NCBI GenBank assembly: GCA_000004695.1
Contig: CM000152.2
Location: 3,360,001-3,424,000, forward strand
Origin: Dictyostelium discoideum
Lineage: Eukaryota
Direction: 5' to 3'
Length of the DNA: 64,000 bases
Position 1 is the stretch's first letter. Every line of letters starts with the position of its first letter. The position numbers and the translations under genes were made by a program. The notes beneath the pieces are model-generated. The model had not been told where the DNA came from. It saw nothing but the letters and a program-made list of their open reading frames with translations, and did no database searches. Positions 1-14,060 of the stretch are shown here, in pieces.

Positions 1-1
1 T

Positions 2-3000
2 TATAAAGCACCACAAAATCAAGTAAATTCAATCACAAAATTTTGTAAATATTGCAAAAAGAAAGGTCATGTAATTCAAGAGTGTTGGTCTAAAGATAAA
101 AAGAATAATTATAATGAGAATAAACAATCATATAATAATCATAGCACTAATGCAATTACAATGGTTAATGATAAAACGATTAATTCTATTGGAACTGATA
201 GTATGAATGCAGCATTATTAATAAATGATAAGAATGTTAGAAGGTTAGTTGATACTGGTTCTTCTCTTACCATCATTTGGGAAAGTATTGCTAAAAAATT
301 AAATTTAAAAGTTGAAGGTAAATCATTTTCAGTTAATTCAGCATCAAATAATGAAATTAAGATAGTTGGTAGTTGTGATACCATAATTAAATTAGGTAAA
401 GCATCCGCAAAAGGTAATGTTAATATTGTTAAAGATAATGATACTTCAATCGATTGCATTTTTGGTGTAGATACACTTATTGGATTGAAATTAATAATTG
501 ATTGCAAGGAAATGATCATTAAGAATCTTGAATTTAATGTTGGTACAAGATTAATCACCAGAGAAACCAAACCAATTGTTTGCAAAATTGATCTAAATAT
601 ATTAGAAAAAGTATCAAAACCAATGGCTGAGTTATTAATCAAAAATGAAGAGATTTTTGAAACCAAATTGTCAAAACCAGGATCATTAATAGATGTTGAA
701 CATTCAATTAAATTAACTGATGAAAATGTTTCTGTTTATACTCCACCATACAAAACTAGTCCAGCTGATAAAGAATTCATTGAAGAATACATTAAAGATG
801 CATTAGATAAAGGTATAATCGAGAAATCAGATTCATCACAATACGGTTCTCCAATAGTCTTATCCAGAAAGAATGATAAAATTAGATTTTGTGTTAATTA
901 TAAAAAACTAAATGACCTCACAATTAAAGATAGATATCCACTTCCATTAATTTCTGATTGTTGGTATTATCTCAAAGATGCAAAAGTTTTCTCAAAAATT
1001 GATCTTACTTCTGGTTATTATCAAATCAAAATGAAAGAAGAGGACAAGGATAAAACAACCTTTGTCTCTCATATGGGTCAATTTAGATATGTTGTAATGC
1101 CATTTGGATTATGTAATGCACCAGCAACTTTTCAAAGATACATGAATGAATTATTAAAAGATGAATTAAGAAAAAGTAATATTGGGTTTATTGACGATTG
1201 TATAATTTATAGCAAGAATAATGAATATCATATTGAACATGTCAAACTATTATTCGAAAAATTCAAAGAAAAAGGTGCAAAGTTACAAATAACTAAATGT
1301 GAGTTTGAAAAAGAAGAGATCAAGTTTTTGGGATATATCGTTTCAAAGAATGGTATTACTTATGATAGTTCAAAGTTTAATGAATTATTAAAAACACCAC
1401 CTCCATCAAATCAAAAAGAATTAATGAAATTACTCGGTACTGTCAATTACTTTAGAACATTCATTAAAAATTTCACTCATTTAACTTCATCATTTTATCC
1501 ACTATTAAAGAAGGGTGTTAATTTCAAATGGACTGATGAATTGGAAAATGATCGTGTAAAATTATTTACTACATTAGCACAAACTAATCTTTTAAGTTTT
1601 CCACAAGATACAGATGATAATGTTATTGAAACTGATGCTTCAATTATTGGTATTGGTGGTGTAATGATTCAAAATGGTAAACCAGTTTCTTATTATTCAA
1701 GAACATTAAACAACGCTGAAAAGAATTATTCTGTTACTGAAAGAGAATGTTTGGCAATCATTGAATCAATTAAATATTTTAAATCCTATATCAATGGTAG
1801 AAAAGTAAAAATCATCACTGATCATCAACCTTTGAAATATCTCTTAACTGGTAAATTTACTGATCGTATTACAAGATGGACTGTATTACTTCAAGAGTAT
1901 AATTACGAAATTATATATAGACCTGGTAAAGAAAACTTTTTAGCTGATGCATTATCAAGATGTCCAGATAGAGATCAACAGCCAATTGATTGTGATATTC
2001 CAGAAAAGATATTTACAATTACTCACTATCCAGTAGCTTCACCATCAACTACAATTTTACCAAGAGTCTTACCATCAAGATCAAATCAAACATCTAATGT
2101 TTCACCAGCTACAACAATTCAACCACCAAATTCATCAAGTTCAAATCAATCATCAAATATCCCACCAACAACAAACCAATCATCAAATATTACAAATCAA
2201 CCAATAAATACTTCATCAATGAATTTAAATCAATCATTATCAAATCCACCATCTCTTATTACAAATCAAGCAACAACCGCTAGATTATTGAATAGTGTAC
2301 CTATCTCAATCAACAATGATAATATTAATACAACAATTCCACAATTTACACAAGAGTCAATAAGAAAAGAGTTGGAAAAAGAAAATTATTATAGAGCAAT
2401 GTATAAATATCTTGAAGAAACAAGACTTCCAGACAATGCACAAGCAGCAAGAAGAATTTTGTTGGAGTCTGAATTTTATTCAATGATTAATGGATTTCTT
2501 TGTCACGGTTTAAAACATACTTTATCAAGTAAGAAATCTCATTTTAAACATCTTCAAATTGTAGTTCCAAAAACTATGACTAAATGGATAATGGAAATAT
2601 TTCATGATTCGCCACTTACTGGAGGACATTTTGGATTATTAAAAACTGTTGCAAAAATCAAAGAAAGATTCTATTGGATTGGTATGATTAAGGATATAAA
2701 AGAATTTATCGATAAATGTACAACTTGTTTACAAATTAAAAGAAAGTATGGTCCAAAAGAAGGTTTACTCATTCCAATTGAGATTGAACCTGAACCATTT
2801 AATACAATTGGTATTGATTTTATTGGTCCAATTACAAAAGATAATGCTCAAGTTTATTTGTTGGTTGTTATGGATTATTTTACTAAATGGCCAGAAGTTT
2901 TCTTTACCCTTGATATGGAAGGGGAGACTGTAGCTCAATTATTGTTGTATGAAATCTATACTAGATATGGGGTTCCAAAGAAGTTGGTTTCTGATCGTGG

Positions 3001-3610
3001 TAAGAATTTTTTAAGTAATGTAGTCTCTGGTGTTAATAAATTATTCGGTGTTCACAAATTAACAACTACTGCTTATCACCCACAATGTGATGGTCAAACT
3101 GAAAATTTCAATAATACATTAATTAAGATGCTCAAAGCTTTTATTGGTAATGAATTGTATGGCAATTGGGGTGAATTATTAAGATGTGTTTTATACTCAT
3201 ACAGAATTACACCACATGTTTCAACTGGTTTTTCACCCTTTTTCTTAATTTTTAATCGTCAACCAACTTTACCATTAGATACAACTTTAAATGTAAATTT
3301 TTATTCAAATTCACTAAGATTAGATTTCGCTGATAATTATGCACAATCCGTAAATAATAATCTTAAACGTGCCTTTTGGTTTACAAAGAATAATCATAAT
3401 CGTCCAACAAATATTCAAACAGGTGATTTTGTTTATTTACATACACCATATTCACAAACTTCTATTGGTCCAAAGAAATTCTATAAACCTTGGAGAGGTC
3501 CTTTTAAAATTCAAGAAAAAGTTAGCGATGTTACATTCAAATTAGATATGGGTAATCTTAGAGATCATAAAGTAGTCAATATTGAAAGATTGAAAAAAAT
3601 TTTCAACTAA
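2..3610 (+). CDS. gag-pol polyprotein, 5'-partial and open to the window edge. It holds the gag zinc knuckle, aspartic protease, reverse transcriptase, RNase H and integrase.
   Basis: Frame 2 is open from nt 2 to the TAA at 3608-3610; the ORF track's 1149 aa run 161..3610. The D(T/S)G protease motif is near nt 251. RT motifs read YVVMPFGLCNAPATFQ and FIDDCIIYS. RNase H reads IETDAS...TDHQPL. The integrase shows H..H...C..C, then D (IGIDFIGP), D (VSDRGKNF) and E (TENFNNT). A 110-aa S/T/N/P/Q-rich low-complexity linker separates RNase H from integrase. Confidence 0.85.
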   Translation, partial: YKAPQNQVNSITKFCKYCKKKGHVIQECWSKDKKNNYNENKQSYNNHSTNAITMVNDKTINSIGTDSMNAALLINDKNVRRLVDTGSSLTIIWESIAKKLNLKVEGKSFSVNSASNNEIKIVGSCDTIIKLGKASAKGNVNIVKDNDTSIDCIFGVDTLIGLKLIIDCKEMIIKNLEFNVGTRLITRETKPIVCKIDLNILEKVSKPMAELLIKNEEIFETKLSKPGSLIDVEHSIKLTDENVSVYTPPYKTSPADKEFIEEYIKDALDKGIIEKSDSSQYGSPIVLSRKNDKIRFCVNYKKLNDLTIKDRYPLPLISDCWYYLKDAKVFSKIDLTSGYYQIKMKEEDKDKTTFVSHMGQFRYVVMPFGLCNAPATFQRYMNELLKDELRKSNIGFIDDCIIYSKNNEYHIEHVKLLFEKFKEKGAKLQITKCEFEKEEIKFLGYIVSKNGITYDSSKFNELLKTPPPSNQKELMKLLGTVNYFRTFIKNFTHLTSSFYPLLKKGVNFKWTDELENDRVKLFTTLAQTNLLSFPQDTDDNVIETDASIIGIGGVMIQNGKPVSYYSRTLNNAEKNYSVTERECLAIIESIKYFKSYINGRKVKIITDHQPLKYLLTGKFTDRITRWTVLLQEYNYEIIYRPGKENFLADALSRCPDRDQQPIDCDIPEKIFTITHYPVASPSTTILPRVLPSRSNQTSNVSPATTIQPPNSSSSNQSSNIPPTTNQSSNITNQPINTSSMNLNQSLSNPPSLITNQATTARLLNSVPISINNDNINTTIPQFTQESIRKELEKENYYRAMYKYLEETRLPDNAQAARRILLESEFYSMINGFLCHGLKHTLSSKKSHFKHLQIVVPKTMTKWIMEIFHDSPLTGGHFGLLKTVAKIKERFYWIGMIKDIKEFIDKCTTCLQIKRKYGPKEGLLIPIEIEPEPFNTIGIDFIGPITKDNAQVYLLVVMDYFTKWPEVFFTLDMEGETVAQLLLYEIYTRYGVPKKLVSDRGKNFLSNVVSGVNKLFGVHKLTTTAYHPQCDGQTENFNNTLIKMLKAFIGNELYGNWGELLRCVLYSYRITPHVSTGFSPFFLIFNRQPTLPLDTTLNVNFYSNSLRLDFADNYAQSVNNNLKRAFWFTKNNHNRPTNIQTGDFVYLHTPYSQTSIGPKKFYKPWRGPFKIQEKVSDVTFKLDMGNLRDHKVVNIERLKKIFN

Positions 3611-3620
3611 AAGGGGGGGA
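3609..3620 (+). other. Polypurine tract (plus-strand primer site) of the LTR retrotransposon.
   Basis: aaaaggggggga lies immediately after the pol stop codon and immediately before the putative LTR start (TG at 3623). Confidence 0.7.
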
Positions 3621-3959
3621 TATGTAATAAAGTTACTCTATAAAATTAATAGATATTAAATATGCATATTACATTACTAATTATAGTTGACACACATTTA
3701 AATAATATAATAATAATAATAATAATAATACTGTCAACTCATTATGAATAATATAAATACTAAAGAATAATTGTATAAACAATATTGAATATTATAAATA
3801 TAAACTAATATTAAATAAAGATAACAAAGTATTATTCAATTATATAATTATTAATTATATATATTTATAAATTTTTTTTTTTTGAATTGGATAACGCAAT
3901 TATTATTTGCTTCTCCTTGAGATGCTAGATCTCATTTTATTTTTTTTTTTTTTTTTACA
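3621..3959 (+). repeat. Putative 3' LTR of the Ty3/gypsy element. The 3' boundary is uncertain (anywhere from 3890 to 3959) because it abuts the 3' end of the neighbouring TRE5-like element.
   Basis: The segment begins TG just after the PPT and is non-coding. A possible terminal CA sits at 3958-3959 just before the B-module-like repeat starts. The 5' LTR is not in the window, so no direct comparison is possible. Confidence 0.45.
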
Positions 3960-4155
3960 GGGTCTTTTTGATTAAAACATCTTTTTTGTCCAAACTTTTT
4001 TCTAAATCTTTTTTTATTTTATCGTCTGGTTCGTGATTGATGTTTATGACGTATTTGAATTGTTTTTTTTTTAATTGAGTTTTATCCACAATTTCGCTTA
4101 TTTTTTGTAGGCATTTGTGTTGCTTAATATTTGTGGTGTTGTTTGTGATTTTCAT
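3955..4155 (-). pseudogene. Truncated duplicate of the ORF1 start (66 aa), lying inside the second copy of the B-module-like repeat.
   Basis: Its protein is identical to the first 63 aa of the 442-aa ORF, and it sits within the 3968-4200 repeat copy. Confidence 0.7.
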
Positions 4156-4196
4156 TTTATTTTCTTTCTATCTTTTTTATTTTTCTGATTAACTTG

Positions 4197-4256
<60 letters not shown>
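3968..4256. repeat. Direct repeat copy 1 (B-module-like), ending in T55 on the + strand.
   Basis: It is near-identical to 5696-5965, with the shared string ttttgattaaaacatcttttttgtccaaac...gattttcattttattttctttctatcttttttatttttct. A 55-nt T run follows at 4201-4256. Confidence 0.8.
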
Positions 4257-4257
<1 letters not shown>

Positions 4258-4553
4258 TTATAGAAAGTACTGAGTGAATTATTGTATTTTTTGAGATGTT
4301 TAGGAAGTTCTATTGCGGGTGTTGATGATGATTTGTGACACCCCTTGTCCTGTTTTATCAATTGGTGCGTGGTGTGTTATTTTGTTTTTATATTGTTGAT
4401 TTATTGAGTAAATTTTATTTGTTTTTATATTTGTTTCAGTTAGAAGTGCTGCGTCCAGCTTGTTGTTGTCTAAAACGGTGTTTATTATGCTGGCAGATTG
4501 GATGGTGTTGGATCCTTGGACGTTCCAAACACCTATTCTTATTGTGTTTTTCT

Positions 4554-5882
4554 TTATAGTTTTATTTGGGGTAGATTTTTATCTACCTTTTGAAGTTTCT
4601 GGTTTATTTTGTCTTCTAACTGATCTTTACTTTGTTCGTTGTGTTGTTGGTCTTGTGTGTTTGTGGGGTTTTTTGATTTATTGATTTGTTTTAGAATTTC
4701 CTTGTTGAAGTTGTCTATATCTTCATCCATTTTTGTTTTTATGCTTTTTTGTCCATATTCACCCAATTTTGGTTTGACTGGTGTTTTGTTGTTTGTTTTG
4801 TCTTGTTGTTTCTTTTTTGGTGTGTTTAACAATTTACTTGGTGAATCGATAATTTTCGATGGTGTACCATAGGTTGGGCTGAAACTCATGATATGTTTTA
4901 TTGGAGAGGAGAAGAACCATTGATTTGAAGGGATTGAAAGTGGGAATTCTATTTTTCTTATTGCATCAGTGTTTGGGCTGGTGAAGTCGAAGATATCATT
5001 TGCCTCTCTAAGTTTTTCTTCCGTTGTTAGTCCCTTTGTTTCGCCGTGTTGTTTTATTGGTGTATTGTATGGAGATGGTGGTTCGATAGGTTTTTCTGAT
5101 TTTGTTTTAATTTCTTGATTGTTTATCGATTGTGTATTGATCTCATTCTCTATTCTTGTTAGTTCATCTACGTTTTCTAGTGATGCTTCTATTACCTTTT
5201 GAGCTGTATCATCTAGGGCCATAAATGTTTTATCATTAGATGAGGATGTGATTGGTGGGATAATGATTGTTCTTTTTCCTTGTTTTGGTATTTGTTCTGA
5301 TGTAGATTGTGGTTGTTGTTCATCTGATTGTTTTTTATTTTTGTTTTCTTCTTGATTTTCTGGTAATGAGGTTTGCTCTCTCCCTCCTTTGTTGGAGTCT
5401 CCAATTAATGTTAGATTGTCTAGTTCAATGATAGTGTCAAATTCTTCTACGACTCTTTTCACTGTTTTGATAATTAGAGTTTCGCCTTTAATTTCTAATT
5501 TAATTAGTTTACATCCTTCATTTTCTATTACCCATTCTATTTCTGTGAGTGATTTATACCAATCAAAATCTGTATACATATTTTTTGGTCTTATAGTGGT
5601 TATAAATTGTCCTTTTAATTCTGCATCAAACATATTTACAAAATAGATTACTGTACTAATACTGTCTGTGAGAATTTTGAATGTATTATTACTTTTGATT
5701 AAAACATCTTTTTTGTCCAAACTTTTTTCTAAATCTTTTTTTATTTTATCGTCTGGTTCGTGATTGATGTTTATGACGTATTTGAATTGTTTTTTTTTTA
5801 ATTGAGTTTTATCCACAATTTCGCTTATTTTTTGTAGGCATTTGTGTTGCTTAATATTTGTGGTGTTGTTTGTGATTTTCAT
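4554..5882 (-). CDS. Retroelement ORF1 protein (442 aa), lysine/acidic-rich with no recognisable enzymatic motifs.
   Basis: It is an intact ORF from the supplied track, with composition far less N/Q-rich than the host genes. Its first 63 codons are duplicated verbatim at 3955-4155. Confidence 0.6.
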   Translation of the reverse strand: MKITNNTTNIKQHKCLQKISEIVDKTQLKKKQFKYVININHEPDDKIKKDLEKSLDKKDVLIKSNNTFKILTDSISTVIYFVNMFDAELKGQFITTIRPKNMYTDFDWYKSLTEIEWVIENEGCKLIKLEIKGETLIIKTVKRVVEEFDTIIELDNLTLIGDSNKGGREQTSLPENQEENKNKKQSDEQQPQSTSEQIPKQGKRTIIIPPITSSSNDKTFMALDDTAQKVIEASLENVDELTRIENEINTQSINNQEIKTKSEKPIEPPSPYNTPIKQHGETKGLTTEEKLREANDIFDFTSPNTDAIRKIEFPLSIPSNQWFFSSPIKHIMSFSPTYGTPSKIIDSPSKLLNTPKKKQQDKTNNKTPVKPKLGEYGQKSIKTKMDEDIDNFNKEILKQINKSKNPTNTQDQQHNEQSKDQLEDKINQKLQKVDKNLPQIKL

Positions 5883-5957
5883 TTTATTTTCTTTCTATCT
5901 TTTTTATTTTTCTTTAAAAAGTTAAAAATCTGGAAATTTTCTAATTAACTTGGTTCC

Positions 5958-6026
<69 letters not shown>
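5696..6026. repeat. Direct repeat copy 2 (B-module-like) with a 27-bp insertion, ending in T61 on the + strand.
   Basis: Same sequence as copy 1 plus ttaaaaagttaaaaatctggaaattttc inserted before the terminal taattaacttgg. A 61-nt T run lies at 5966-6026. Confidence 0.8.
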
Positions 6027-6029
<3 letters not shown>

Positions 6030-6145
6030 TCTTTTTTATATGAAAAATGAAATAATCAAAAAAAGAGATTGTTGTTGTTGTTTGTTTTTTTCGATCTCAT
6101 ATATATTTATAAAGCTAACAAGCTTTATTACATGAAAAACATCAA

Positions 6146-6218
6146 GGTTTTATAGTGTAATTGGTTAGCACCCAGGACTTTGAATCCTGTAATCTGAGTT
6201 CGAGTCTCAGTAGAACCA
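6146..6218 (+). tRNA. tRNA-Gln (anticodon UUG).
   Basis: It folds by hand into a cloverleaf. The acceptor stem is ggtttta/tagaacc (one G-U pair) and the D stem is gtgt/gcac. The anticodon stem cagga/tcctg carries loop cTTTGaa (U33, anticodon TTG, A37). The T stem ctgag/ctcag carries loop ttcgagt, the variable loop is 4 nt, and the discriminator is A. The A and B boxes are internal. A T5 run follows immediately. Confidence 0.85.
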
Positions 6219-6226
6219 CTTTTTAT
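6219..6226 (+). terminator. Pol III terminator T-run after tRNA-Gln.
   Basis: cttttta lies directly 3' of the discriminator base. Confidence 0.6.
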
Positions 6227-6254
6227 TATTTCAAATTTCAAATTTCAAATCGCT

Positions 6255-6265
6255 GGTTCGATTCC
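6255..6265 (+). promoter_or_regulatory. External B box (exB) downstream of the tRNA gene.
   Basis: ggttcgattcc is a perfect B-box consensus 37 bp after the tRNA 3' end. Extra downstream B boxes are a known feature of many Dictyostelium tRNA genes and are bound by TFIIIC. A (TTCAAAT)3 repeat precedes it at 6229-6249. Confidence 0.6.
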
Positions 6266-7338
6266 ATATGGTGGAGAAATAAGCAATTAATGACTTGTGG
6301 TTCATGAACAAAAAAGTGGAAACTCAGATCAAAATTATAAAAATCCATTATAAATCTTCCTGGTACTAATCCTTTATTATTGAAAGATTATGCTAGAATT
6401 GGTTCTAACTTCAAATATAAGAGGTCTTGTCCAAAAAACAAAGAAATCCACAAAATTACACCTATAAATACACTAAGTATGCAGATGGATCATGAGGTAA
6501 AATAGACAACCCAAATCTTAGATTCTACAAAGAATACTTTAAATGGGGATATAAATGTGTAAATTGTGACCTATCCCTCATATAGAAACATAATTGCATT
6601 AATAATTCATAACATCTGTGTGGGATGTGCACTCAATTTTATAGTAATGAAAAGCTATCATACTAGATTCTATTTAATGTTACAAACCAGTAACTATAGA
6701 ATATAAAAGAAAAAAAATTGAAATTAACTCTTCCAAAGGATCTTATCAATTTTAAAGTCTCAAACAATTTCTTAAAAATGAATTATTAAATTAAGAAAAT
6801 TAACTTGCAAAGTATATTCCCTAATCAGTGCTTCCAACTAGGTTGGAACAAAAAATAATAAAATGGGTCAGTAGAAATGGATTAATCTCCTTTGACCAAA
6901 TCATTATTTGATAAAAAAAATATTTTAATTTTAATAATAACTAATCATGCTCGAAATGTACCATTGAAAATAGCTAGCTCACTATCTTGTTTGAAAATCA
7001 TGAAACTGCTGGTTTAATTGGTATGGAATGTTGCTCAACTATCTACAATGAATCAGAATGCCTGCAAAGACATCAGTATTGATCGATTTCAAGATTTATA
7101 TTAACTTTCATAATTTCAAAATAAATTGGGGACTCAAACACCACATCCGCCCAATTCATTGGTTTATGCGGTTCCAAACACTACACATCCAATAATATTT
7201 AAATGAAAAAAAAAATCTTAATTAAAGGTTTATAATTGAATCAAAAATTATTTAAAACAACTATTTTATATTTTTATTAATTTTTAAATTCTAATTTAAA
7301 AAAAAAAAAAGACACAAATTTAGGTAACCATCAATATT

Positions 7339-7898
7339 TTAAATATGATTATGATATATTGGTTCATTTTGCCAATTATCAGTTGCACCATCTAAAAATG
7401 TAACCTTTAATTTTGAAAGTTGTTCATGAGTAATGCCTTCGATTGTATTAACGTTAACAGCATAAAATGGAGCATTTGGAACACCTTCCATTTTGACAAG
7501 AGTATATGTATTAACACCACAGGCTTTGCAAAAATAGTTATCATTTATCTTTGAACCATATAGGTAATTTTCTTGATCATTTTCACCTTTTAATACTTTG
7601 AAATCTTTAGGGCAAACAATAATTTCCCAAAATCTAGTTTTTAAACAATATGCTTTTTTTTTTTTTTTTTTAAAAAAATTTATTTTATGTTTTATTAATA
7701 TTTAATTTTGTTTTATTTGATTTCTTTTATTTTTTTTTTTTTTTTTTATTTAATTTTAAAATAAAAATTGGTATACTTACAACAATTACATCTTAAAGTT
7801 TCTGATTTTAATAATTCAGTTTCAAGTTTACATTGAAATCTAACATTACCACAATGGCATGATCCAAAAAATTCTTTACTATTTTCATTAATATCCAT
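7339..7898 (-). CDS. GFA / CENP-V family (Mss4-like zinc-binding) protein, 143 aa, two exons. It is absent from the ORF track because of the intron.
   Basis: Exon 1 is 7898-7781 and reads MDINENSKEFFGSCHCGNVRFQCKLETELLKSETLRCNC. The donor is GTAAGT and the intron spans 7780-7653. Exon 2 is 7652-7339 and reads SYCLKTRFWEIIVCPKDF...FCKACGVNTYT...stop. The CxCG and CxCSxC cysteine signatures match the glutathione-dependent formaldehyde-activating (GFA) / CENP-V family. Confidence 0.65.
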
Positions 7899-8288
7899 TT
7901 TTATGTATTTTTTTTTATTTTTGTGAGAGTGAATAATAAGATGAAATTATTGACGTGTGGTGAAATGGTGAAATGAAAATCTTTTGAACAAAAAAATAAA
8001 AAAAAAAATTTTTTTTGTTGTTTTTATACCTTTCACAACCTTCAGTTTGAAATATCTTTTTTTTTTTTTTAATTTTTTTTTTATTATTTTTAAATAATGA
8101 AAGGTCACTATTTAATTACAAGAAAATCAATTTTTATTCGAAATTTAATTAATTTTTGCAGGCCAGTCCCAATCTGATGGTGCTATTTCAAAAATATCTC
8201 AAATCAAATTATTTTAATTTTATTTTTAGTTCAAATAATTAACCTAAACTTTTTTTTTTTTTTTTGATTGGAAATAATGATTTGAATA

Positions 8289-8324
<36 letters not shown>

Positions 8325-8361
8325 TTGTTATTCTATTACAAATTTTAATTTATTTATTTAT

Positions 8362-9166
8362 TTATCTATTTGAAGAAAAAGATTCGTAATCTTCATCCTC
8401 AAAATTACCTTTATTATCATTATCGTCACTATCGTCATTATCTCTACTAGTTCTTGTACTTCTATTTTTATAACCGCTATAATCGTCGTCATCATTATTA
8501 TTATTGTTGTTATCATCATCATCCCCATTTTCACTCTCATCTGGATGATACTCCTCTTCTTCATCTTCTAATTCCAATGGATATCTTAAAATTGCTGCAA
8601 CACCTGATAATTTTGAAAGTTCTATATTGATAATAATAATATTATTATTAATAATAAATTAATAAATTAAATGAGTATATATAAATATATAAATATATAA
8701 ATATAAATATTAAATTTTTAAATATATATATACATACGTTCACCAGTTACATGTAAACCAGAAAATAATTTAACATCACCTTTATTATCTTTAACGGATT
8801 GAACCAAGTCAACATACTTTTTTCTAGTTTTTACATCTTTACCACGAAATAATTCATCAGTGACCAAGAGGGTTTCAATTGCTAATCTTTCATTTGCCTT
8901 TTTAACATGTTCGTAACCATAGAAAGCTCTATTTGGATCTTTTTTCAACATATCATAAAAATCATTAAGAATCTTAACTTCACTAGCTGCTTTTGTATTT
9001 GAGAATTGTTGAACGATTGCTTGATCTGATAAAACCTCTTTCAATGAATATCTATGTCCTGATGATGAATGTGTTAAAATAAATTTTGATTTATTTTGTC
9101 TAAATACTTTATACAAATCATTCTTTGATGATTGATCCATCATATATTGAAAGAATTTATCCTTTT

Positions 9167-9201
<35 letters not shown>

Positions 9202-9212
9202 TAAATAAATAA

Positions 9213-9246
<34 letters not shown>

Positions 9247-9914
9247 TATTAATTATAAATTATTATATTTACTTTAACAAAAGCTGGTGAAGCAATTATA
9301 AAACATTTTACAACATCAAAATTAATATTTCTAGTCATTGATTGTAAGATTGTATTGAAAAAGTTTTCTAAACCTTTTTGATGATTATCAGATGTTGATC
9401 TACCTTTACGTGGTACAGGTACTTCGATTCTACTTTTAACAACGGTCATTGCTGATGTGATTAAACAAAGATTTGCTAAACCCTCATTCATGATTAATGC
9501 AGCAACATCGGCACGTTGACCTATATCAGTTGCATTTTTGACCAACTCCAATGAGATCATATCCCATTCTTGTTTTTGTAACTGAAACTCTCTATTCATC
9601 TCTAAATCGATAGTATGAAATGATCCAAGTTTAACAAATCTATTCTCTACACATGTTGCTCCACTAACACGAAGTAATGATGATTCATTATCGTGATCGA
9701 TTTTGGTGACTTGAATGGTTATCTTTAATTTCTGTCTCTCACTTGTTACACTACCAGTTGCTGTCTCTTTTTGAATCTTTCTTACTGTTGAACTTGTTAA
9801 TAGATCACCTACACTTATTAAATTATAACAATGCCATAAATCTTCTTCTTCTTCTAATTGTAATTTTACATATCCTGATAAATCTTTTTCAATATATTTT
9901 TTAATTAATTTCAT
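8362..9914 (-). CDS. Pelota / Dom34 (no-go decay ribosome rescue factor), 3 exons with an acidic Asp/Asn-rich C-terminal tail.
   Basis: The exons are 9914-9273, 9170-8738 and 8621-8362, with a GTAAAT donor after exon 1 and a GTATGT donor after exon 2. The protein opens MKLIKKYIEKDLSGYVKLQLEEEEDLWHCYNLISVGD...ASPAFVK, runs through ...LTHSSSGH...AFYGYEHV...LLVTDELFR... and ends GEQLSKLSGVAAILRYPLELEDEEEE.... These are strong pelota hallmarks. About 444 aa. Confidence 0.85.
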
Positions 9915-10545
9915 TTTTCTAAATTATTTCTTTTTTTTTAATTATTTTTTTTTTTTTATAATAAAATTATTTGCATATTATTTTTTTTTTTTTTAAAATC
10001 TTTTCTACTTTTTGTTGTATAAATTCATATATAAAAATAAAATTGTTGTTGTTGAATTTCTTTTTTAAAAAAAAAAATATTTTTTTGTTTGATATTTTGT
10101 GGAAGCGAGAAAAAAGAAAAAAAGAAAAAAAAATAAAAAAAAAAAATTGAAAAAAAAAAAATGAAAATTAAAAAAAATTAATAAAAAAAATAAAAAAAAA
10201 AATAAAAATAAAAAATAAATTAAAAAAATAAAATAATTTTTTATTTATTTAATTATTTAATTATTTTTGGTGGGGATGTAGTTCAAAAAAAAAAAAATAT
10301 TGCAAAAAAAAAAAAATAACAATAATAATAATAAATGGATATAAAAAGAAAAAAAAAAATAAAATAAAATAAAAAAGATAATTAGATAATATATTTAATA
10401 GTTGTTAAATTGATAATTTTGTTTTGTTTTGTTTTTTTTTTTTGGAAAAAATGGAAATTAAATTTTGTTTTGTTTTTTTTTTTTTTTTTTTTTTGGAAAA
10501 ATTATTTTTAGATTTTTTTTTTTAGATTTTTTATTTTAAAATTTT

Positions 10546-11762
10546 TTATTTGTTACCATCTGTACTTCTACTAAAAAAGGAAGATCTTTGAGGTTGCGTA
10601 TTATTATTATTATTATTATTACTATTATTACTATTATTATTATTATTATTATGAAATTGAGCCTTCATCTCTTCATTTGTTTTCTTTTCAAATTCTCTTA
10701 AACTTTCCATATCCATATCAAACCATTGATCAATCCAACAGAATATCTGTCTATGACCCATAAAAAAAGTATCTCTAAGTGCAACTCTTTGAATAAAATT
10801 CTCTACTTTATTTTGAACACCCCAACATCTAAATTCTACTTTACAAACTTTATAACAACACATAATTGGTTTTGTCGATTTCTAATTTTTTATTTATTAT
10901 TGTTGTTAATATAAATTATTATATTAATAAATTGATTTGTTGTTTTGGTTTTTTTTATAAATATAAAAAAGATTAACAAACTTACCATCCAATCATTTTG
11001 TAATTTTCCTCTACCAGTTTTTACAGATTGAAATATTTTTGGATCTTCTTCTGGTTTATAATGTGCTTCGTCGATTGGATCATTTACAATATCAATATGT
11101 TCTACCTCTCTAATACTTAATTCTTCACTATTTAAATTTAAACACTATTGGATTAAAAAATTAAAAAAAAAAAAAAAATGAAAAAGAAGAAATAAAATCA
11201 TTAGAATTTATAACTCCTCAATCAAATAGAGGTGTGAGTGTGATATGACATATCTAGGTATTTACATTGTCTTGTGTACCTGAATCTGGTTCATATCTAG
11301 TTTCGATTGATACTGAAAATCTATCACCCAATAAAGGACACTATATAATTATATTTTTAAAAATGATGTACGTTAATATAAATTTATTTATTGATAAAAT
11401 ATCATCTCTATCACTCTCTTTCTCTTTCTTTCTCTCTCTCTCCTATTGTAATGAATAATGATACAAACAGCATAACTTGTTTTACAATATGGATATGCAT
11501 TCCAAGCTTTCTCTTCAATTTGTAATGAAGTTGGAGCGAATGATCTTAACCAGGTTGGTAATCTACCACCTAAATGAAAAATTTTACGTGTAAAGAAACC
11601 AGTTGTTGCACCGTCTGCGTATGGTTTATTCTCTATGACTTCAATACCTTCACCCAAAGATGTATTCTTTTTACTTATTGTTGCAACCATAAAAAGTTGT
11701 GCTACTTTATATTCTTCAACTGTAAGTGGTAATGGAATTCTAAATTCTTTAATTAAAACCAT
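10546..11762 (-). CDS. Phosphatidylinositol transfer protein (class I PITP), 4 exons, with a poly-Asn C-terminal tail.
   Basis: Exon 1 is 11762-11469 and reads MVLIKEFRIPLPLTVEEYKVAQLFMVAT...EKAWNAYPYCKTSYA. Exon 2 is 11340-11266 (CPLLGDRFSVSIETRYEPDSGTQDN). Exon 3 is 11144-10986 (...EAHYKPEEDPKIFQSVKTGRGKLQNDWM). Exon 4 is 10881-10546 (KSTKPIMCCYKVCKVEFRCWGVQNKVENFIQR...HRQIFCWIDQWFDMDMESLREFEKK...). The product is collinear with mammalian PITPalpha, about 287 aa. Dictyostelium has pitA and pitB; I cannot tell which this is. Confidence 0.85.
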
Positions 11763-12243
11763 TTTTTTTTTTTTTTTTTTTTGTTGCTTTGAAAATAAAA
11801 AGTTTTTGATTTTCGTTTATTTCTTTTTTTTTTTTTTTTTTTTTTTTTTTGCTTCGAAAATTTTTATTATCTTAAAATTTCCGTGAGGCGACTGGTTTCT
11901 TCTTAAATATTTAAGATGGGAAAAAAAAAAAGTTACTTTATTTTTTTGAGAAATAAAATTAAAAAAAATATATTTTTACAGTTATTATTATTATTATTAC
12001 TATATTATTATTATTATTATTATTACTATTTATCTGTGTGGTAATCAGGTGAAAAAAAAAAAAAAAAAAAAATAAAAAAAATAAAAAAATAAAGAAAATT
12101 TTTTTTTTTGAAAATAATAAAAAAATAAAAAAATAAAAAATAAAAGAAAAAAAAAAAAAAAAATTGAGGGTGTGGGGGGAGATTGAGACTATTGGCTAAA
12201 AAATCCAATGTATGTTGATGATATCACACTTAATACGATTATT

Positions 12244-12302
<59 letters not shown>

Positions 12303-12357
12303 TTGGTTTTACAAAAAAAAAAAAAAATAATAATATGTTATAATGTTTAGAAAAAAA

Positions 12358-12389
<32 letters not shown>

Positions 12390-12580
12390 AAAATATAAAA
12401 AAAAAAAAAAATAAAAATAAAAAAAAAAAAATAATAAAAAAAAATATTACAATCGTTTACAGTAAAAATTTTAAAAAAAAAAAAATTTTGAAAAAAAAAA
12501 AAAAATAATTTTTAAAAAATAAAAAAAAAATCAAAGTTTTGTGTTGACATTTTAAAAAAAAATAAAAAAAAAAAAAAATA

Positions 12581-12726
12581 ATGCAATCTTTACTCGTTGG
12601 CGATTACAAATGCAGGTAAATAAATATTATATTTATTTCTTACAAAAAATTGAAAATTTTTAATTTTTTTTTTTTTATGATATTAATATCTTTTTTTTTT
12701 TTGTTATTATTATTATTATCTAAATA

Positions 12727-12759
<33 letters not shown>

Positions 12760-13165
12760 TAGAGTTAGTTCAGTATTAAATAAACAAACTAAAGAATATG
12801 GTAAAGAGAATTTATTTGATAAAAGTGAAGAAACATGTTGGAATTCACATCAAGGTACACCACAATTTATAGTGATTCAATTTCCTCAAGAAAATGGTGT
12901 AACATTGTCAAGTGTGAATATTATGTTTCAAGGTGGATTCGTTGGTAAAGATTGTGAAATTTTAACAATGTCAACAAATTCAGATTCAAAAGAATTTATT
13001 CACTCTTGTTATTTCTATCCAAAAGATATTAATACAACTCAACAATTCCCAATTGATTCAATTAAAAATACAAATATTAAACAAATTAAAATTTTATTTC
13101 CTCAAAGTACTGATTTCTTTGGTAGAATTACAATTTATCAATTAGATATTTTAGGTGAACCAACT

Positions 13166-13171
<6 letters not shown>
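12581..13171 (+). CDS. NR2C2AP (TRA16)-like small galactose-binding-like domain protein, 2 exons, about 147 aa.
   Basis: Exon 1 is 12581-12615 (MQSLLVGDYKC, then AG at phase 2), with a GTAAAT donor. Exon 2 is 12763-13171 (R VSSVLNKQTKEYGKENLFDKSEETCWNSHQGTPQFIVIQFPQ...FQGGFVGKDCEI...FFGRITIYQLDILGE). The motif order matches human NR2C2AP. Confidence 0.7.
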
Positions 13172-13200
<29 letters not shown>

Positions 13201-13360
13201 AAAAAACAAAAAACAAAAAACAAAAATTAATTCTGTAAAAACATTAAATTTTAATTTTATCCTTTTTTTTTTTTTTTTTTTTTTTACACTTTTTATTTTT
13301 CAGTTTAAAAAAAAAATAAAATAAATAATAAATAAATTTAAATGATTTTATTTAATTTTA

Positions 13361-13422
<62 letters not shown>

Positions 13423-13443
13423 TGTTTTTTTTTTTTTTTTTTT

Positions 13444-14060
13444 TTAATAAAGATTTGAAACGATTTTCTTTTCCCAAATTGTTAATTTTTCGAAATTTGT
13501 GTTGATTTGAGGAAGTTTTTGAAAAATTCTTTCACCTTGGTATTCAAATTTATTATATGGGATTGATGATTTTGGAGTAAATCCAATATGTTCACAAAGT
13601 TTTTGACCAGATACAGTTGCAGTTTCTGCACACATATATTGAAAGTTATGAGCTCTACCTATATCTGTACTATGATACCACATATCATATGCAACACCCT
13701 TAAAAAGGAAATTTAATTAATAATCTATATATATTTCAAAGTGATGATAATTCTGTTTGTTGTTGTTGTTTTTTTTTATTTTTTTTACATACTTGACCTC
13801 TAGAACTTGGAACAACGCATGTAAAATATAAAGAATGAATAATCTCACCAAATCTAATTGTATTTGGATGTTCTTTTTTATATTTATGATGTAAATTTGA
13901 AAACATTGATTTTACTGGTTCCTAATTGTTTTTCATTTTGAAAAAAAAAAAAAAAAAAAAAAATTATTAGTATTTTTTTATTAAATTATTATTATTTTTA
14001 TTTTTTTATTTTTTTATTTTTTTTTATTTTTTTTTTATAATAATAATAATAATAATAATG

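What the first reader, a model, noticed from the sequence alone, without database searches (positions are those of the whole stretch)
2..3620. Apparently intact gag-PR-RT-RH-IN reading frame in a tRNA-associated gypsy element
More than 3.6 kb of gag-pol is open in one frame with every catalytic motif intact (DTG, FIDD, the RNase H DEDD residues, HHCC and DDE), and a PPT is present. If this is DGLT-A, copies in the reference genome are reported to be degenerate, so a coding-competent 3' two-thirds would be notable. Alternatively it is a recently active, possibly uncharacterised Ty3/gypsy lineage. The single gag-pol frame with no frameshift or stop between the zinc knuckle and protease is also worth noting.
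Basis: partly seen in the sequence, partly recalled or inferred. Interest (0 to 1): 0.55.

Follow-up and report, generated by a model that had tools for sequence, protein, structure and literature searches.

The report
Known DGLT-A retrotransposon copy, slightly damaged
This is the already annotated chromosome-3 copy (DDB_G0280521) of the known tRNA-targeting retrotransposon DGLT-A of Dictyostelium discoideum AX4; its reading frame is open, but a private 14-residue deletion in the integrase and a second transposon inside its right LTR make it an ordinary, young, decaying copy.

Summary
Window 2-3607 is one open frame ending at TAA 3608-3610, with 1 stop against 67-168 in the other five frames. 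It has a zinc knuckle, PR, RT, RNase H and IN with every catalytic motif, then a polypurine tract and an LTR.

It is not a new lineage. The 1202 residues are 100% identical to DDB_G0280521 (1422 aa, D. discoideum AX4 chromosome 3) and 98% identical to the published DGLT-A polyprotein.

A syntenic locus in a second D. discoideum assembly (L001, 99.4% identical) supplies what the window lacks: the gag start, the PBS and a 268-bp 5' LTR identical to the 3' LTR.

The element sits 13 bp upstream of tRNA-Gln(UUG) with a 4-bp TGAA duplication. Its 3' LTR is split after base 249 by a 2227-bp ORF2-less TRE5-A inserted 47 bp upstream of the same tRNA.

Compared with 12 relatives, this copy alone lacks 14 conserved residues of the integrase core-to-SH3 linker helix and has further private changes at invariant positions. 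No daughter copy carries the deletion.

So few substitutions have occurred that an open frame is expected by chance (47-78%).

Verdict: already known, low interest. It fits the literature's view that AX4 has no intact full-length DGLT-A, although this copy is nearly complete.

The parts
2..3610 (+). C-terminal 1202 codons plus stop of the DGLT-A gag-pol ORF (= residues 221-1422 of DDB_G0280521)
   Evidence: Open frame. 100% identical to P0122/XP_641178. 98% identical to the DGLT-A polyprotein AAG37039.
44..85 (+). Gag zinc knuckle CX2CX4HX4C (CKYCKKKGHVIQEC)
   Evidence: The motif is described for DGLT-A in PMC5006619.
218..472 (+). Aspartic protease domain with DTG at 251-259. The AX4-private G->R change is at codon 81 (242-244) and V->G at codon 138 (413-415).
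   Evidence: Pfam PF13650, aa 73-157. Private changes.
869..1342 (+). Reverse transcriptase domain (KIDLTSGY and FIDD)
   Evidence: Pfam PF00078, aa 290-447. Aligned to Ty3 RT 4ol8/7q5b.
1529..1960 (+). RNase H domain (D, E, D, D in ETDAS, TERECL, ITDHQ, LADALSR). In DGLT-A this is the domain reported to bind TFIIIC subunit Tfc4.
   Evidence: Pfam PF17919/PF17917. Motifs. Tfc4 binding from PMC6101501.
1980..2341 (+). Low-complexity S/N/T/P-rich linker between RNase H and integrase (approximate bounds). It includes NPPSLIT (2243-2263), which the published 1437-aa reference lacks but most copies have.
2564..3106 (+). Integrase HHCC zinc domain and DDE catalytic core
   Evidence: Pfam PF17921 (aa 855-914) and PF00665 (aa 932-1027). 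Motifs.
3395..3400 (+). Junction (CATAAT = His-Asn) of a net 42-nt in-frame deletion. It removes 14 conserved residues at the C-terminal end of the integrase CCD-CTD linker helix.
   Evidence: Aligned to Ty3 LEHAQIEMETNNNQRR in 7q5b. AF2 model helix 275-306, with the deletion at about 296-309.
3422..3598 (+). Integrase SH3-like C-terminal domain
   Evidence: Pfam PF24626/PF22938 just below cut-off. Beta strands in the AF2 model. Fold matches Ty3 and PFV integrases.
3609..3619 (+). Polypurine tract AAAAGGGGGGG, followed by ATA and then the LTR
3623..3871 (+). 3' LTR, bases 1-249 of 268 (starts TGTAAT)
   Evidence: Exact match to the 5' LTR of the syntenic locus L001 9580-9828.
3872..6098 (-). 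TRE5-A non-LTR retrotransposon, 2227 bp, lacking ORF2, inserted into the DGLT-A 3' LTR. Features: ORF1 5882-4554; exact 221-bp repeats 5693-5913 and 3966-4186 (read here as the duplicated B-module); oligo(A) tail 3883-3872. It is flanked by the 15-bp target duplication ATATATATTTATAAA (3857-3871 and 6099-6113).
   Evidence: ORF1 is 100% identical to DDB_G0280523. Published TRE5-A ORF1 primers match: Rep-109 in full, Rep-108 over its first 16 nt (PMC4559204).
6099..6132 (+). 3' LTR, bases 235-268 (ends TTATTACA)
   Evidence: Exact match to the end of the L001 5' LTR.
6133..6136 (+). TGAA, right copy of the 4-bp DGLT-A target-site duplication. The left copy lies outside the window and is seen in L001 at 9576-9579.
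6146..6219 (+). tRNA-Gln(UUG) gene, the integration target. The DGLT-A LTR ends 13 bp upstream and the TRE5-A 5' end lies 47 bp upstream.
   Evidence: ARAGORN. Rfam RF00005, 67.4 bits. Distances.

Best explanation
The region is the 3' 85% of one genomic copy of DGLT-A, the known Ty3/gypsy-type LTR retrotransposon of Dictyostelium discoideum. This copy is annotated as DDB_G0280521 on chromosome 3 of the reference strain AX4.

What is shown here:
- DGLT-A integrated 13 bp upstream of a tRNA-Gln(UUG) gene with its 3' LTR facing the tRNA, making a 4-bp TGAA duplication.
- A TRE5-A non-LTR element later integrated 47 bp upstream of the same tRNA. That position falls inside the DGLT-A 3' LTR, after base 249 of 268, with a 15-bp duplication.
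- Both insertions are shared by AX4 and a second D. discoideum assembly.
- The two LTRs show no differences.

How the family works (from the literature, not tested here): a single Gag-PR-RT-RNH-IN polyprotein is translated; reverse transcription is primed at a PBS 2 bp after the left LTR and at the PPT; target choice is attributed to RNase H and IN-NTD binding TFIIIC subunit Tfc4.

State of this copy: the frame is still open, but the copy carries private lesions. These are a 14-residue deletion that shortens the integrase CCD-CTD linker helix, two conservative replacements at invariant positions, and, in AX4 only, G->R three residues before the protease DTG plus V->G.

Inference: this is a young copy drifting neutrally. 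It is most likely unable to integrate on its own. It may still be transcribed and supply Gag, PR, RT and RNase H.
For: Identity:
- 1202/1202 residues match P0122 = DDB_G0280521.
- The neighbouring ORF is 100% identical to DDB_G0280523, on the same 6.36-Mb contig.
- 98% identical to the DGLT-A polyprotein AAG37039.
- No chromodomain hit in Pfam.

Anatomy:
- The syntenic locus L001 is 99.4% identical over 13.7 kb.
- L001 has a 268-bp 5' LTR, then TT, then the PBS TGGCGACATCGTCTTT and the gag ATG.
- P0122 and P0124 differ at only 2 of 1422 residues, both within the window.
- The window's LTR pieces of 249 and 34 bp match that 5' LTR exactly and overlap by 15 bp. The TGAA duplication and the 13-bp and 47-bp distances were measured directly.

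Lesions:
- The 14-aa gap occurs only in P0122 and P0124 among 14 aligned DGLT-A proteins, which go down to 55% identity.
- It aligns to conserved Ty3 residues in 7q5b.
- It falls in helix 275-306 of a confident AF2 model, just before the SH3 domain. The model's best fold matches are the Ty3 and PFV integrases.
- The Ty3 intasome paper reports that the extended alpha-helical CCD-CTD linker positions the CTD for target binding (PMC8632968).

Neutral drift:
- Against the full-length copy L002 there are 3 synonymous and 9 non-synonymous differences.
- 20% of random substitutions in this ORF would be synonymous and 6.1% would create stops. An open frame therefore has a 47-78% chance after 4-12 hits.

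Literature: AX4 has 20 DGLT-A insertions, none full-length with intact ORFs (PMC5006619). [quoted passage not shown]
Against: - Loss of integrase function is inferred from conservation and a predicted structure. No assay was done, and linker length could be tolerated.
- Every catalytic residue is present, the LTRs are identical, and the PBS and PPT are present.
- The TRE5-A insertion lies about 55 bp downstream of an AATAAA in the LTR. It may therefore sit in U5 of the 3' LTR, which is not part of the genomic RNA. If so, the split LTR need not block transcription or replication.
- The AX4 5' LTR, PBS and gag DNA were not seen directly. They come from a second assembly plus the AX4 protein record.
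- The substitution counts are too small to exclude weak purifying selection.
Confidence: 0.8

Rival explanations
1. This copy is a fully autonomous, currently active DGLT-A source element. On this view the integrase deletion and the split 3' LTR are tolerated, and the literature's view that AX4 has no competent copy is wrong.
For: - Uninterrupted 1422-codon ORF with all catalytic motifs.
- Identical LTRs, with PBS and PPT present.
- The TRE5-A break is 19 bp from the LTR end, downstream of an AATAAA at about LTR position 190, so it could lie in the dispensable 3' U5.
Against: - The 14 deleted residues are conserved in all 12 other DGLT-A proteins and in Ty3. They form part of the CCD-CTD helix.
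- Only this locus carries the deletion, as P0122 and P0124. No other protein in the 90% clusters has it, so no progeny are visible.
- There are private replacements at invariant positions, one next to the protease active site.
- The S:N ratio looks neutral.
Confidence: 0.1
2. The ORF is a domesticated host gene, kept open by selection for a cellular function.
For: It is annotated as a protein-coding gene (DDB_G0280521), and the open frame is retained in two strains.
Against: - It still has both LTRs, the PBS and the PPT of a recent insertion.
- It differs from a canonical full-length copy at only about 0.3% of nucleotides.
- The two strains differ only by non-synonymous changes at invariant residues.
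- The open frame is expected by chance.
- No orthologous, LTR-less gene was seen in the sister species hits.
Confidence: 0.03
3. It belongs to an uncharacterised Ty3/gypsy lineage distinct from DGLT-A and Skipper.
Against: - 98% amino-acid identity to AAG37039 (DGLT-A) and 100% to DDB_G0280521.
- The LTR, PBS and target distance match the published DGLT-A description (PMC5006619).
Confidence: 0.01
4. The long open frame is an artefact of assembling a repeat family in the Sanger-era AX4 reference, that is, a chimeric or consensus-like sequence.
For: - Repeats were hard to assemble in AX4.
- One odd adjacent double difference (AGAAGG against AGAGGT, window 241-246) could be a base-calling error.
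Against: An independent assembly of another strain (GCA_054883475.1) reproduces the same locus at 99.4% identity over 13.7 kb. It has the same 42-nt deletion, the same TRE5-A insertion and the same flanking genes.
Confidence: 0.02

Closest known systems
DGLT-A of Dictyostelium discoideum (reference polyprotein AAG37039 / Q9GQ51, 1437 aa; consensus element 5054 bp, LTR about 265 bp)
   Same: - 98% amino-acid identity.
- Single gag-pol ORF with a CX2CX4HX4C knuckle and PR-RT-RNH-IN order.
- No chromodomain.
- PPT before the right LTR.
- 268-bp TG...CA LTR.
- PBS TGGCGACATCGTCTTT 2 bp after the left LTR (seen in the syntenic locus).
- Insertion 13 bp upstream of a tRNA gene.
   Different: - 1422 aa rather than 1437.
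- Private 14-aa deletion in the integrase CCD-CTD linker.
- Lacks 8 gag residues and has 7 extra linker residues relative to the reference. For both of these, this copy shows the majority state among copies and it is the reference that is unusual.
- 3' LTR interrupted by a TRE5-A.
Full-length DGLT-A copy in D. discoideum assembly GCA_054883475.1 (L002; protein KAM9945456, 1437 aa)
   Same: Same family. 99.1-99.4% nucleotide identity over the aligned ORF and LTR. It also lies 13 bp upstream of a tRNA gene (tRNA-Met) with a 4-bp duplication.
   Different: L002 has the complete integrase linker, uninterrupted LTRs (271 and 268 bp, differing by one 3-bp indel), and only 3 residues different from the published reference. 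It is the better candidate for a competent element.
Ty3 of Saccharomyces cerevisiae (structures 7q5b, 4ol8)
   Same: Ty3/gypsy domain order, integration about 15 bp upstream of the mature tRNA coding sequence, and a long alpha-helical CCD-CTD linker followed by an SH3 CTD (PMC8632968).
   Different: - Only 29-30% identity to the Ty3 integrase in the fold search; PMC6101501 gives 35% for the RT/RNH core and 26% for the IN core.
- Ty3 expresses POL3 through a +1 frameshift, whereas DGLT-A has one frame.
- Ty3 integrase binds TFIIIB and carries a vestigial chromodomain. DGLT-A RNase H and IN-NTD bind TFIIIC subunit Tfc4, and no chromodomain is present (PMC6101501, PMC8632968).
Skipper-1 / Skipper-2 (Dictyostelium chromoviruses)
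   Same: Related Ty3/gypsy elements of the same host. Skipper-1 is 34% identical to DGLT-A in the RT-RNH-IN cores (PMC5006619).
   Different: Skipper has two ORFs, a chromodomain after the integrase, and a polypyrimidine tract instead of a PBS. It is found in centromeres (Skipper-1) or downstream of tRNA genes (Skipper-2). None of these applies here.

Membership tests
DGLT-A (D. discoideum) | High sequence identity to the published DGLT-A polyprotein | tested here: met
   98% over 1202 aa to AAG37039. 100% to DDB_G0280521.
DGLT-A (D. discoideum) | Gag (CX2CX4HX4C), PR, RT, RNH and IN all in one ORF | tested here: met
   No stop or frameshift between the knuckle (44-85) and the end of the integrase (3607). 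The complete 1422-aa ORF is in P0122/P0124.
DGLT-A (D. discoideum) | No chromodomain, and only a short extension after the integrase core | tested here: met
   No PF00385 hit at E <= 0.01. The ORF ends directly after the SH3-like domain.
DGLT-A (D. discoideum) | LTRs of about 265 bp | tested here: met
   268 bp with TG...CA ends, reconstructed from 3623-3871 plus 6099-6132. Identical to the L001 5' LTR.
DGLT-A (D. discoideum) | [quoted passage not shown] | tested here: inconclusive
   This lies outside the window. In the syntenic locus L001 the sequence TT + TGGCGACATCGTCTTTA is present, matching 16 of 17 positions.
DGLT-A (D. discoideum) | [quoted passage not shown] | tested here: met
   AAAAGGGGGGG at 3609-3619, 3 nt before the LTR.
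DGLT-A (D. discoideum) | Insertion 13-33 bp upstream of a tRNA gene | tested here: met
   The LTR ends at 6132 and tRNA-Gln starts at 6146, leaving 13 bp.
DGLT-A (D. discoideum) | RNase H / IN-NTD binding to TFIIIC subunit Tfc4 | not testable with these tools
   This is a biochemical property reported in PMC6101501. The RNase H sequence here is identical to the reference.
Retrotransposition-competent (autonomous) LTR element | All proteins intact relative to functional relatives | tested here: not met
   Private 14-aa deletion in the conserved CCD-CTD helix of the integrase, plus private changes at invariant residues.
Retrotransposition-competent (autonomous) LTR element | Two uninterrupted LTRs | tested here: not met
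   The 3' LTR is split after base 249 by a 2227-bp TRE5-A. The functional consequence is uncertain if the break lies in U5.
Skipper (chromovirus) | Chromodomain C-terminal to the integrase, and separate gag and pol ORFs | tested here: not met
   No chromodomain hit and a single ORF.
Ty3 (S. cerevisiae) | GAG3/POL3 overlap with a +1 frameshift | tested here: not met
   Single continuous frame. Shares 29-30% identity with the Ty3 integrase in the fold search. The family is the same (Ty3/gypsy) but the element is different.
TRE5-A (the element inserted in the LTR) | Non-LTR element with ORF1, a duplicated B-module, a C-module and an oligo(A) tail, lying about 48 bp upstream of a tRNA gene with its 5' end facing the tRNA | tested here: met
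   - ORF1 is 100% identical to DDB_G0280523 and belongs to a multi-copy family.
- Published TRE5-A ORF1 primers match: Rep-109 in full, Rep-108 over its first 16 nt.
- Exact 221-bp internal repeat.
- A12 tail, 15-bp duplication, and 47 bp to the tRNA.
- ORF2 is absent.

The most novel reading that the evidence does not exclude
DGLT-A is not extinct in D. discoideum. On this reading the chromosome-3 copy, despite its shortened integrase linker and split 3' LTR (the break possibly lying in the dispensable U5), still yields a packageable RNA and working Gag, PR, RT and RNase H. It is then mobilised, either by itself or by integrase supplied from a consensus-like copy such as the one seen in another strain (L002). 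That would overturn the published view that AX4 lacks any competent DGLT-A, and it would provide the retrotransposition-competent element the field says it lacks.
Probability: 0.1. Interest if true: 0.4.

Novelty: already known. Interest (0 to 1): 0.15.

Why it matters
It matters little for discovery. The element, its single-ORF layout, its tRNA targeting and this very gene model are already in the literature and the reference annotation.

The modest practical value concerns assays. Kling et al. (PMC6101501) state that no retrotransposition-competent DGLT-A is available for them. This copy is nearly complete, and within the window it differs from a consensus-like copy by one 42-nt deletion and about 10 substitutions. 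A second assembly also holds a natural 1437-aa copy with two uninterrupted LTRs (L002). Either could serve as a template for a marked element.

The locus is also a clean example of two unrelated retrotransposons using the same tRNA gene at their characteristic distances of 13 and 47 bp.

Tried and rejected
- A whole-window repeat search was swamped by low-complexity AT-rich and triplet repeats and gave nothing usable. LTR boundaries were found by exact-string and BLAST comparison instead.
- Exact-protein look-ups for the AX4 proteins DDB_G0280521, DDB_G0280523 and DDB_G0294236 returned 'not on record'. AX4 DNA to the left of the window could therefore not be fetched, and the syntenic locus of another assembly was used.
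- The original DGLT-A description (Glockner et al. 2001) is not held. No paper mentions DDB_G0280521.
- The apparent 8-aa 'deletion' in gag and 7-aa 'insertion' in the RNH-IN linker were first considered lesions. This was rejected because most copies, including those of sister taxa, share this copy's state, and the published reference is the outlier.
- Domestication was considered and rejected on the neutral substitution pattern.


Full report
**Observation.** The frame beginning at window base 2 runs without a stop to TAA at 3608-3610. The same 3.6 kb has 67-168 stops in each of the other five frames. At 27% G+C, the chance of 1202 stop-free codons is about 3e-48. Pfam finds an aspartic protease, RVT_1, RT-associated RNase H, the integrase HHCC zinc domain and the rve core above the curated cut-offs, and the SH3-like C-terminal domain just below them. 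These are the zinc knuckle, DTG, the RT aspartates including FIDD, the four RNase H acidic residues, HHCC and DDE. The polypurine tract AAAAGGGGGGG lies at 3609-3619.

**Identity.** A search of the protein collection gave a 98% match over the full query to the D. discoideum polyprotein AAG37039/Q9GQ51, 1437 aa. Listing that cluster and comparing its members showed that the window's 1202 residues are identical to residues 221-1422 of DDB_G0280521 (XP_641178, 1422 aa) from D. discoideum AX4, on a 6,357,299-bp contig. The adjacent minus-strand ORF (4554-5882) is 100% identical to DDB_G0280523 on the same contig. The window is therefore AX4 chromosome 3, and the feature is an annotated gene model of the known element DGLT-A. 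No chromodomain is detected.

**Extending to the left.**
- AX4 DNA outside the window could not be fetched.
- The near-identical protein KAM9949775 (P0124) differs at 2 of 1422 residues, both inside the window. It led to the syntenic locus L001 in assembly GCA_054883475.1.
- L001 aligns to window 1-13681 at 99.4% identity.
- L001 shows a 268-bp LTR (TGTAAT...TTATTACA), then TT, then TGGCGACATCGTCTTT. That is the published DGLT-A primer-binding site apart from its last base.
- An A-rich leader follows, then the gag ATG.

Gag is therefore not disrupted, and a 5' LTR is present at this locus in the species. For AX4 itself this is an inference, resting on synteny and on the identical N-terminal 220 residues of the AX4 protein record.

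**The 3' end and the tRNA.**
- The window's 3' LTR starts at 3623 and matches the L001 5' LTR exactly for 249 bp, up to 3871.
- The last 34 bp of the LTR are found, again exactly, at 6099-6132.
- The two pieces overlap by 15 bp (ATATATATTTATAAA). This is the target-site duplication of a 2227-bp insert at 3872-6098.
- The LTR ends 13 bp before tRNA-Gln(UUG) at 6146-6219. This is within the published 13-33 bp range for DGLT-A.
- TGAA flanks both ends of the element.

The insert is a TRE5-A on the minus strand.
- Its ORF1 belongs to a multi-copy AX4 family.
- It is matched by the published TRE5-A ORF1 qPCR primers (PMC4559204). Rep-109 matches in full and Rep-108 over its first 16 nt.
- It has an exact 221-bp internal repeat, which I read as the duplicated B-module (PMC5006619 mentions the duplication).
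- It ends in A12 and lacks ORF2.
- Its 5' end lies 47 bp from the tRNA, the characteristic TRE5-A distance.

Both insertions are shared by the two assemblies. Two unrelated retrotransposons thus used the same tRNA gene in succession, and the second landed inside the first one's LTR.

**Is the copy intact?** I aligned 14 DGLT-A proteins from D. discoideum strains, D. cf. discoideum and D. citrinum, down to 55% identity.
- The 8 residues 'missing' in gag and the 7 'extra' residues (NPPSLIT) in the RNH-IN linker are the majority state. They are not lesions; the published 1437-aa reference is the outlier.
- A 14-residue gap, with Leu-Asp replaced by His-Asn (window 3395-3400, net 42 nt), is found only at this locus, in P0122 and P0124. 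Every other sequence keeps the conserved K-[AS]-[QK]-E-x-Q-[KE]-x-x-Y-[DN]-K-[GD]-R segment.
- HMMER aligns that segment with high confidence to LEHAQIEMETNNNQRR of the Ty3 integrase in structure 7q5b, directly before the SH3 domain.
- An AlphaFold2 model of the intact integrase, taken from the full-length copy L002 (mean pLDDT 77), has a 32-residue helix at 275-306 followed by the SH3 strands. The deletion removes roughly residues 296-309, about the last third of that helix plus the start of the loop.
- The model's best structural matches are the Ty3 and PFV integrases.
- The Ty3 intasome paper reports that this extended CCD-CTD helix positions the C-terminal domain for target-complex binding (PMC8632968).

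There are further private changes. L->I and V->I at otherwise invariant positions are shared by both strains. In AX4 only, G->R lies three residues before the protease DTG, and V->G lies nearby. That the integrase is impaired is an inference from conservation and structure. It has not been measured.

**Does the open frame indicate selection?** Against the full-length copy L002, the window ORF differs at 12 codons, 3 synonymous and 9 non-synonymous. The two strains' alleles differ by 2 non-synonymous and no synonymous changes. In this ORF, 20% of random single-base changes would be synonymous and 6.1% would create a stop. After 4-12 substitutions an open frame is therefore retained with probability 0.78-0.47. 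The open frame needs no explanation beyond youth. The identical LTRs likewise only say that the insertion is recent on an evolutionary scale. No other protein in the clusters carries the 42-nt deletion, so no progeny of this copy are visible.

**Comparison with the literature.** Spaller et al. count 20 DGLT-A insertions in AX4, none 'full-length with intact open reading frames'. They suggest the family may no longer amplify, although its ORF domains are transcribed (PMC5006619). Malicki et al. say all AX4 copies are incomplete (PMC5633606). [quoted passage not shown] The present copy fits these statements, but it is much closer to complete than 'degenerate' suggests. It has a complete frame, and both LTR sequences are present. 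Its defects are a 14-codon deletion and a TRE5-A sitting 19 bp from the end of the 3' LTR. That break lies about 55 bp downstream of an AATAAA in the LTR. It may therefore lie in the 3' U5, which is not part of the genomic RNA. This is a conjecture that 3'-RACE would settle.

**Verdict.** The feature is a known family member in the reference genome, so novelty is 'already known' and interest is low. The most novel reading still open is that this copy remains mobilisable and that DGLT-A is not extinct. I give it about 10%.

Noticed in passing
window 3872-6098 (minus strand): A 2227-bp TRE5-A lacking ORF2 sits inside the DGLT-A 3' LTR with a 15-bp target duplication, 47 bp upstream of tRNA-Gln. 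It has an exact 221-bp internal repeat (3966-4186 = 5693-5913), each copy preceded on the element's strand by a very long A run (57 and 65 nt; T runs at 4199-4255 and 5962-6026).
   Followed up: yes
L002 9551-14594 (assembly GCA_054883475.1, contig JBTAPE010000033.1): A natural full-length DGLT-A. It has a 1437-aa ORF only 3 residues different from the published reference and two uninterrupted LTRs (271 and 268 bp, differing by one 3-bp indel). The PBS is TGGCGACATCGTCTTTC and the duplication is TTTT. It lies 13 bp upstream of a tRNA-Met gene. It is a candidate for the retrotransposition-competent element that the literature says is lacking.
   Followed up: partly
window 241-246: AX4 reads AGAAGG where both copies in the other assembly read AGAGGT. 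These are two differences within one codon, giving G->R three residues before the protease DTG. It could be a complex mutation or a base-calling or compensated-indel error in the reference.
   Followed up: partly
alignment A1, columns about 220-250 and 1045-1051: The published DGLT-A reference polyprotein (AAG37039) carries minority states: a divergent gag stretch with 8 extra residues, and a 7-residue deletion in the RNH-IN linker. Most copies, including those of D. cf. discoideum, differ from it. The '1437 aa' form is therefore one sub-lineage rather than the ancestral state.
   Followed up: partly
proteins P0004, P0005, P0006: A second DGLT-A-like family, only 56-58% identical, is present in D. 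citrinum and in one assembly labelled D. discoideum (ACTFIR_000607). It has full-length ORFs of about 1360 aa. No DGLT-A family this divergent is described for D. discoideum in the papers read here.
   Followed up: no
protein P0127 (KAM9942001, assembly GCA_054883475.1), alignment A1 columns 1297-1304: Another long-ORF DGLT-A copy in the second assembly has its own private 8-residue deletion (GKNFLSNV) inside the integrase catalytic core. Several copies therefore keep open frames while each carries a different in-frame lesion.
   Followed up: no
L001 9866-9999 and window-L001 alignment: All 9 gaps in the 13.7-kb alignment between the two strains were reported without position. From visible length differences (for example the T runs around window 3872-3960 and 4199-4255 against L001), they appear to be homopolymer-length differences. 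They could be real polymorphism or assembly error.
   Followed up: no
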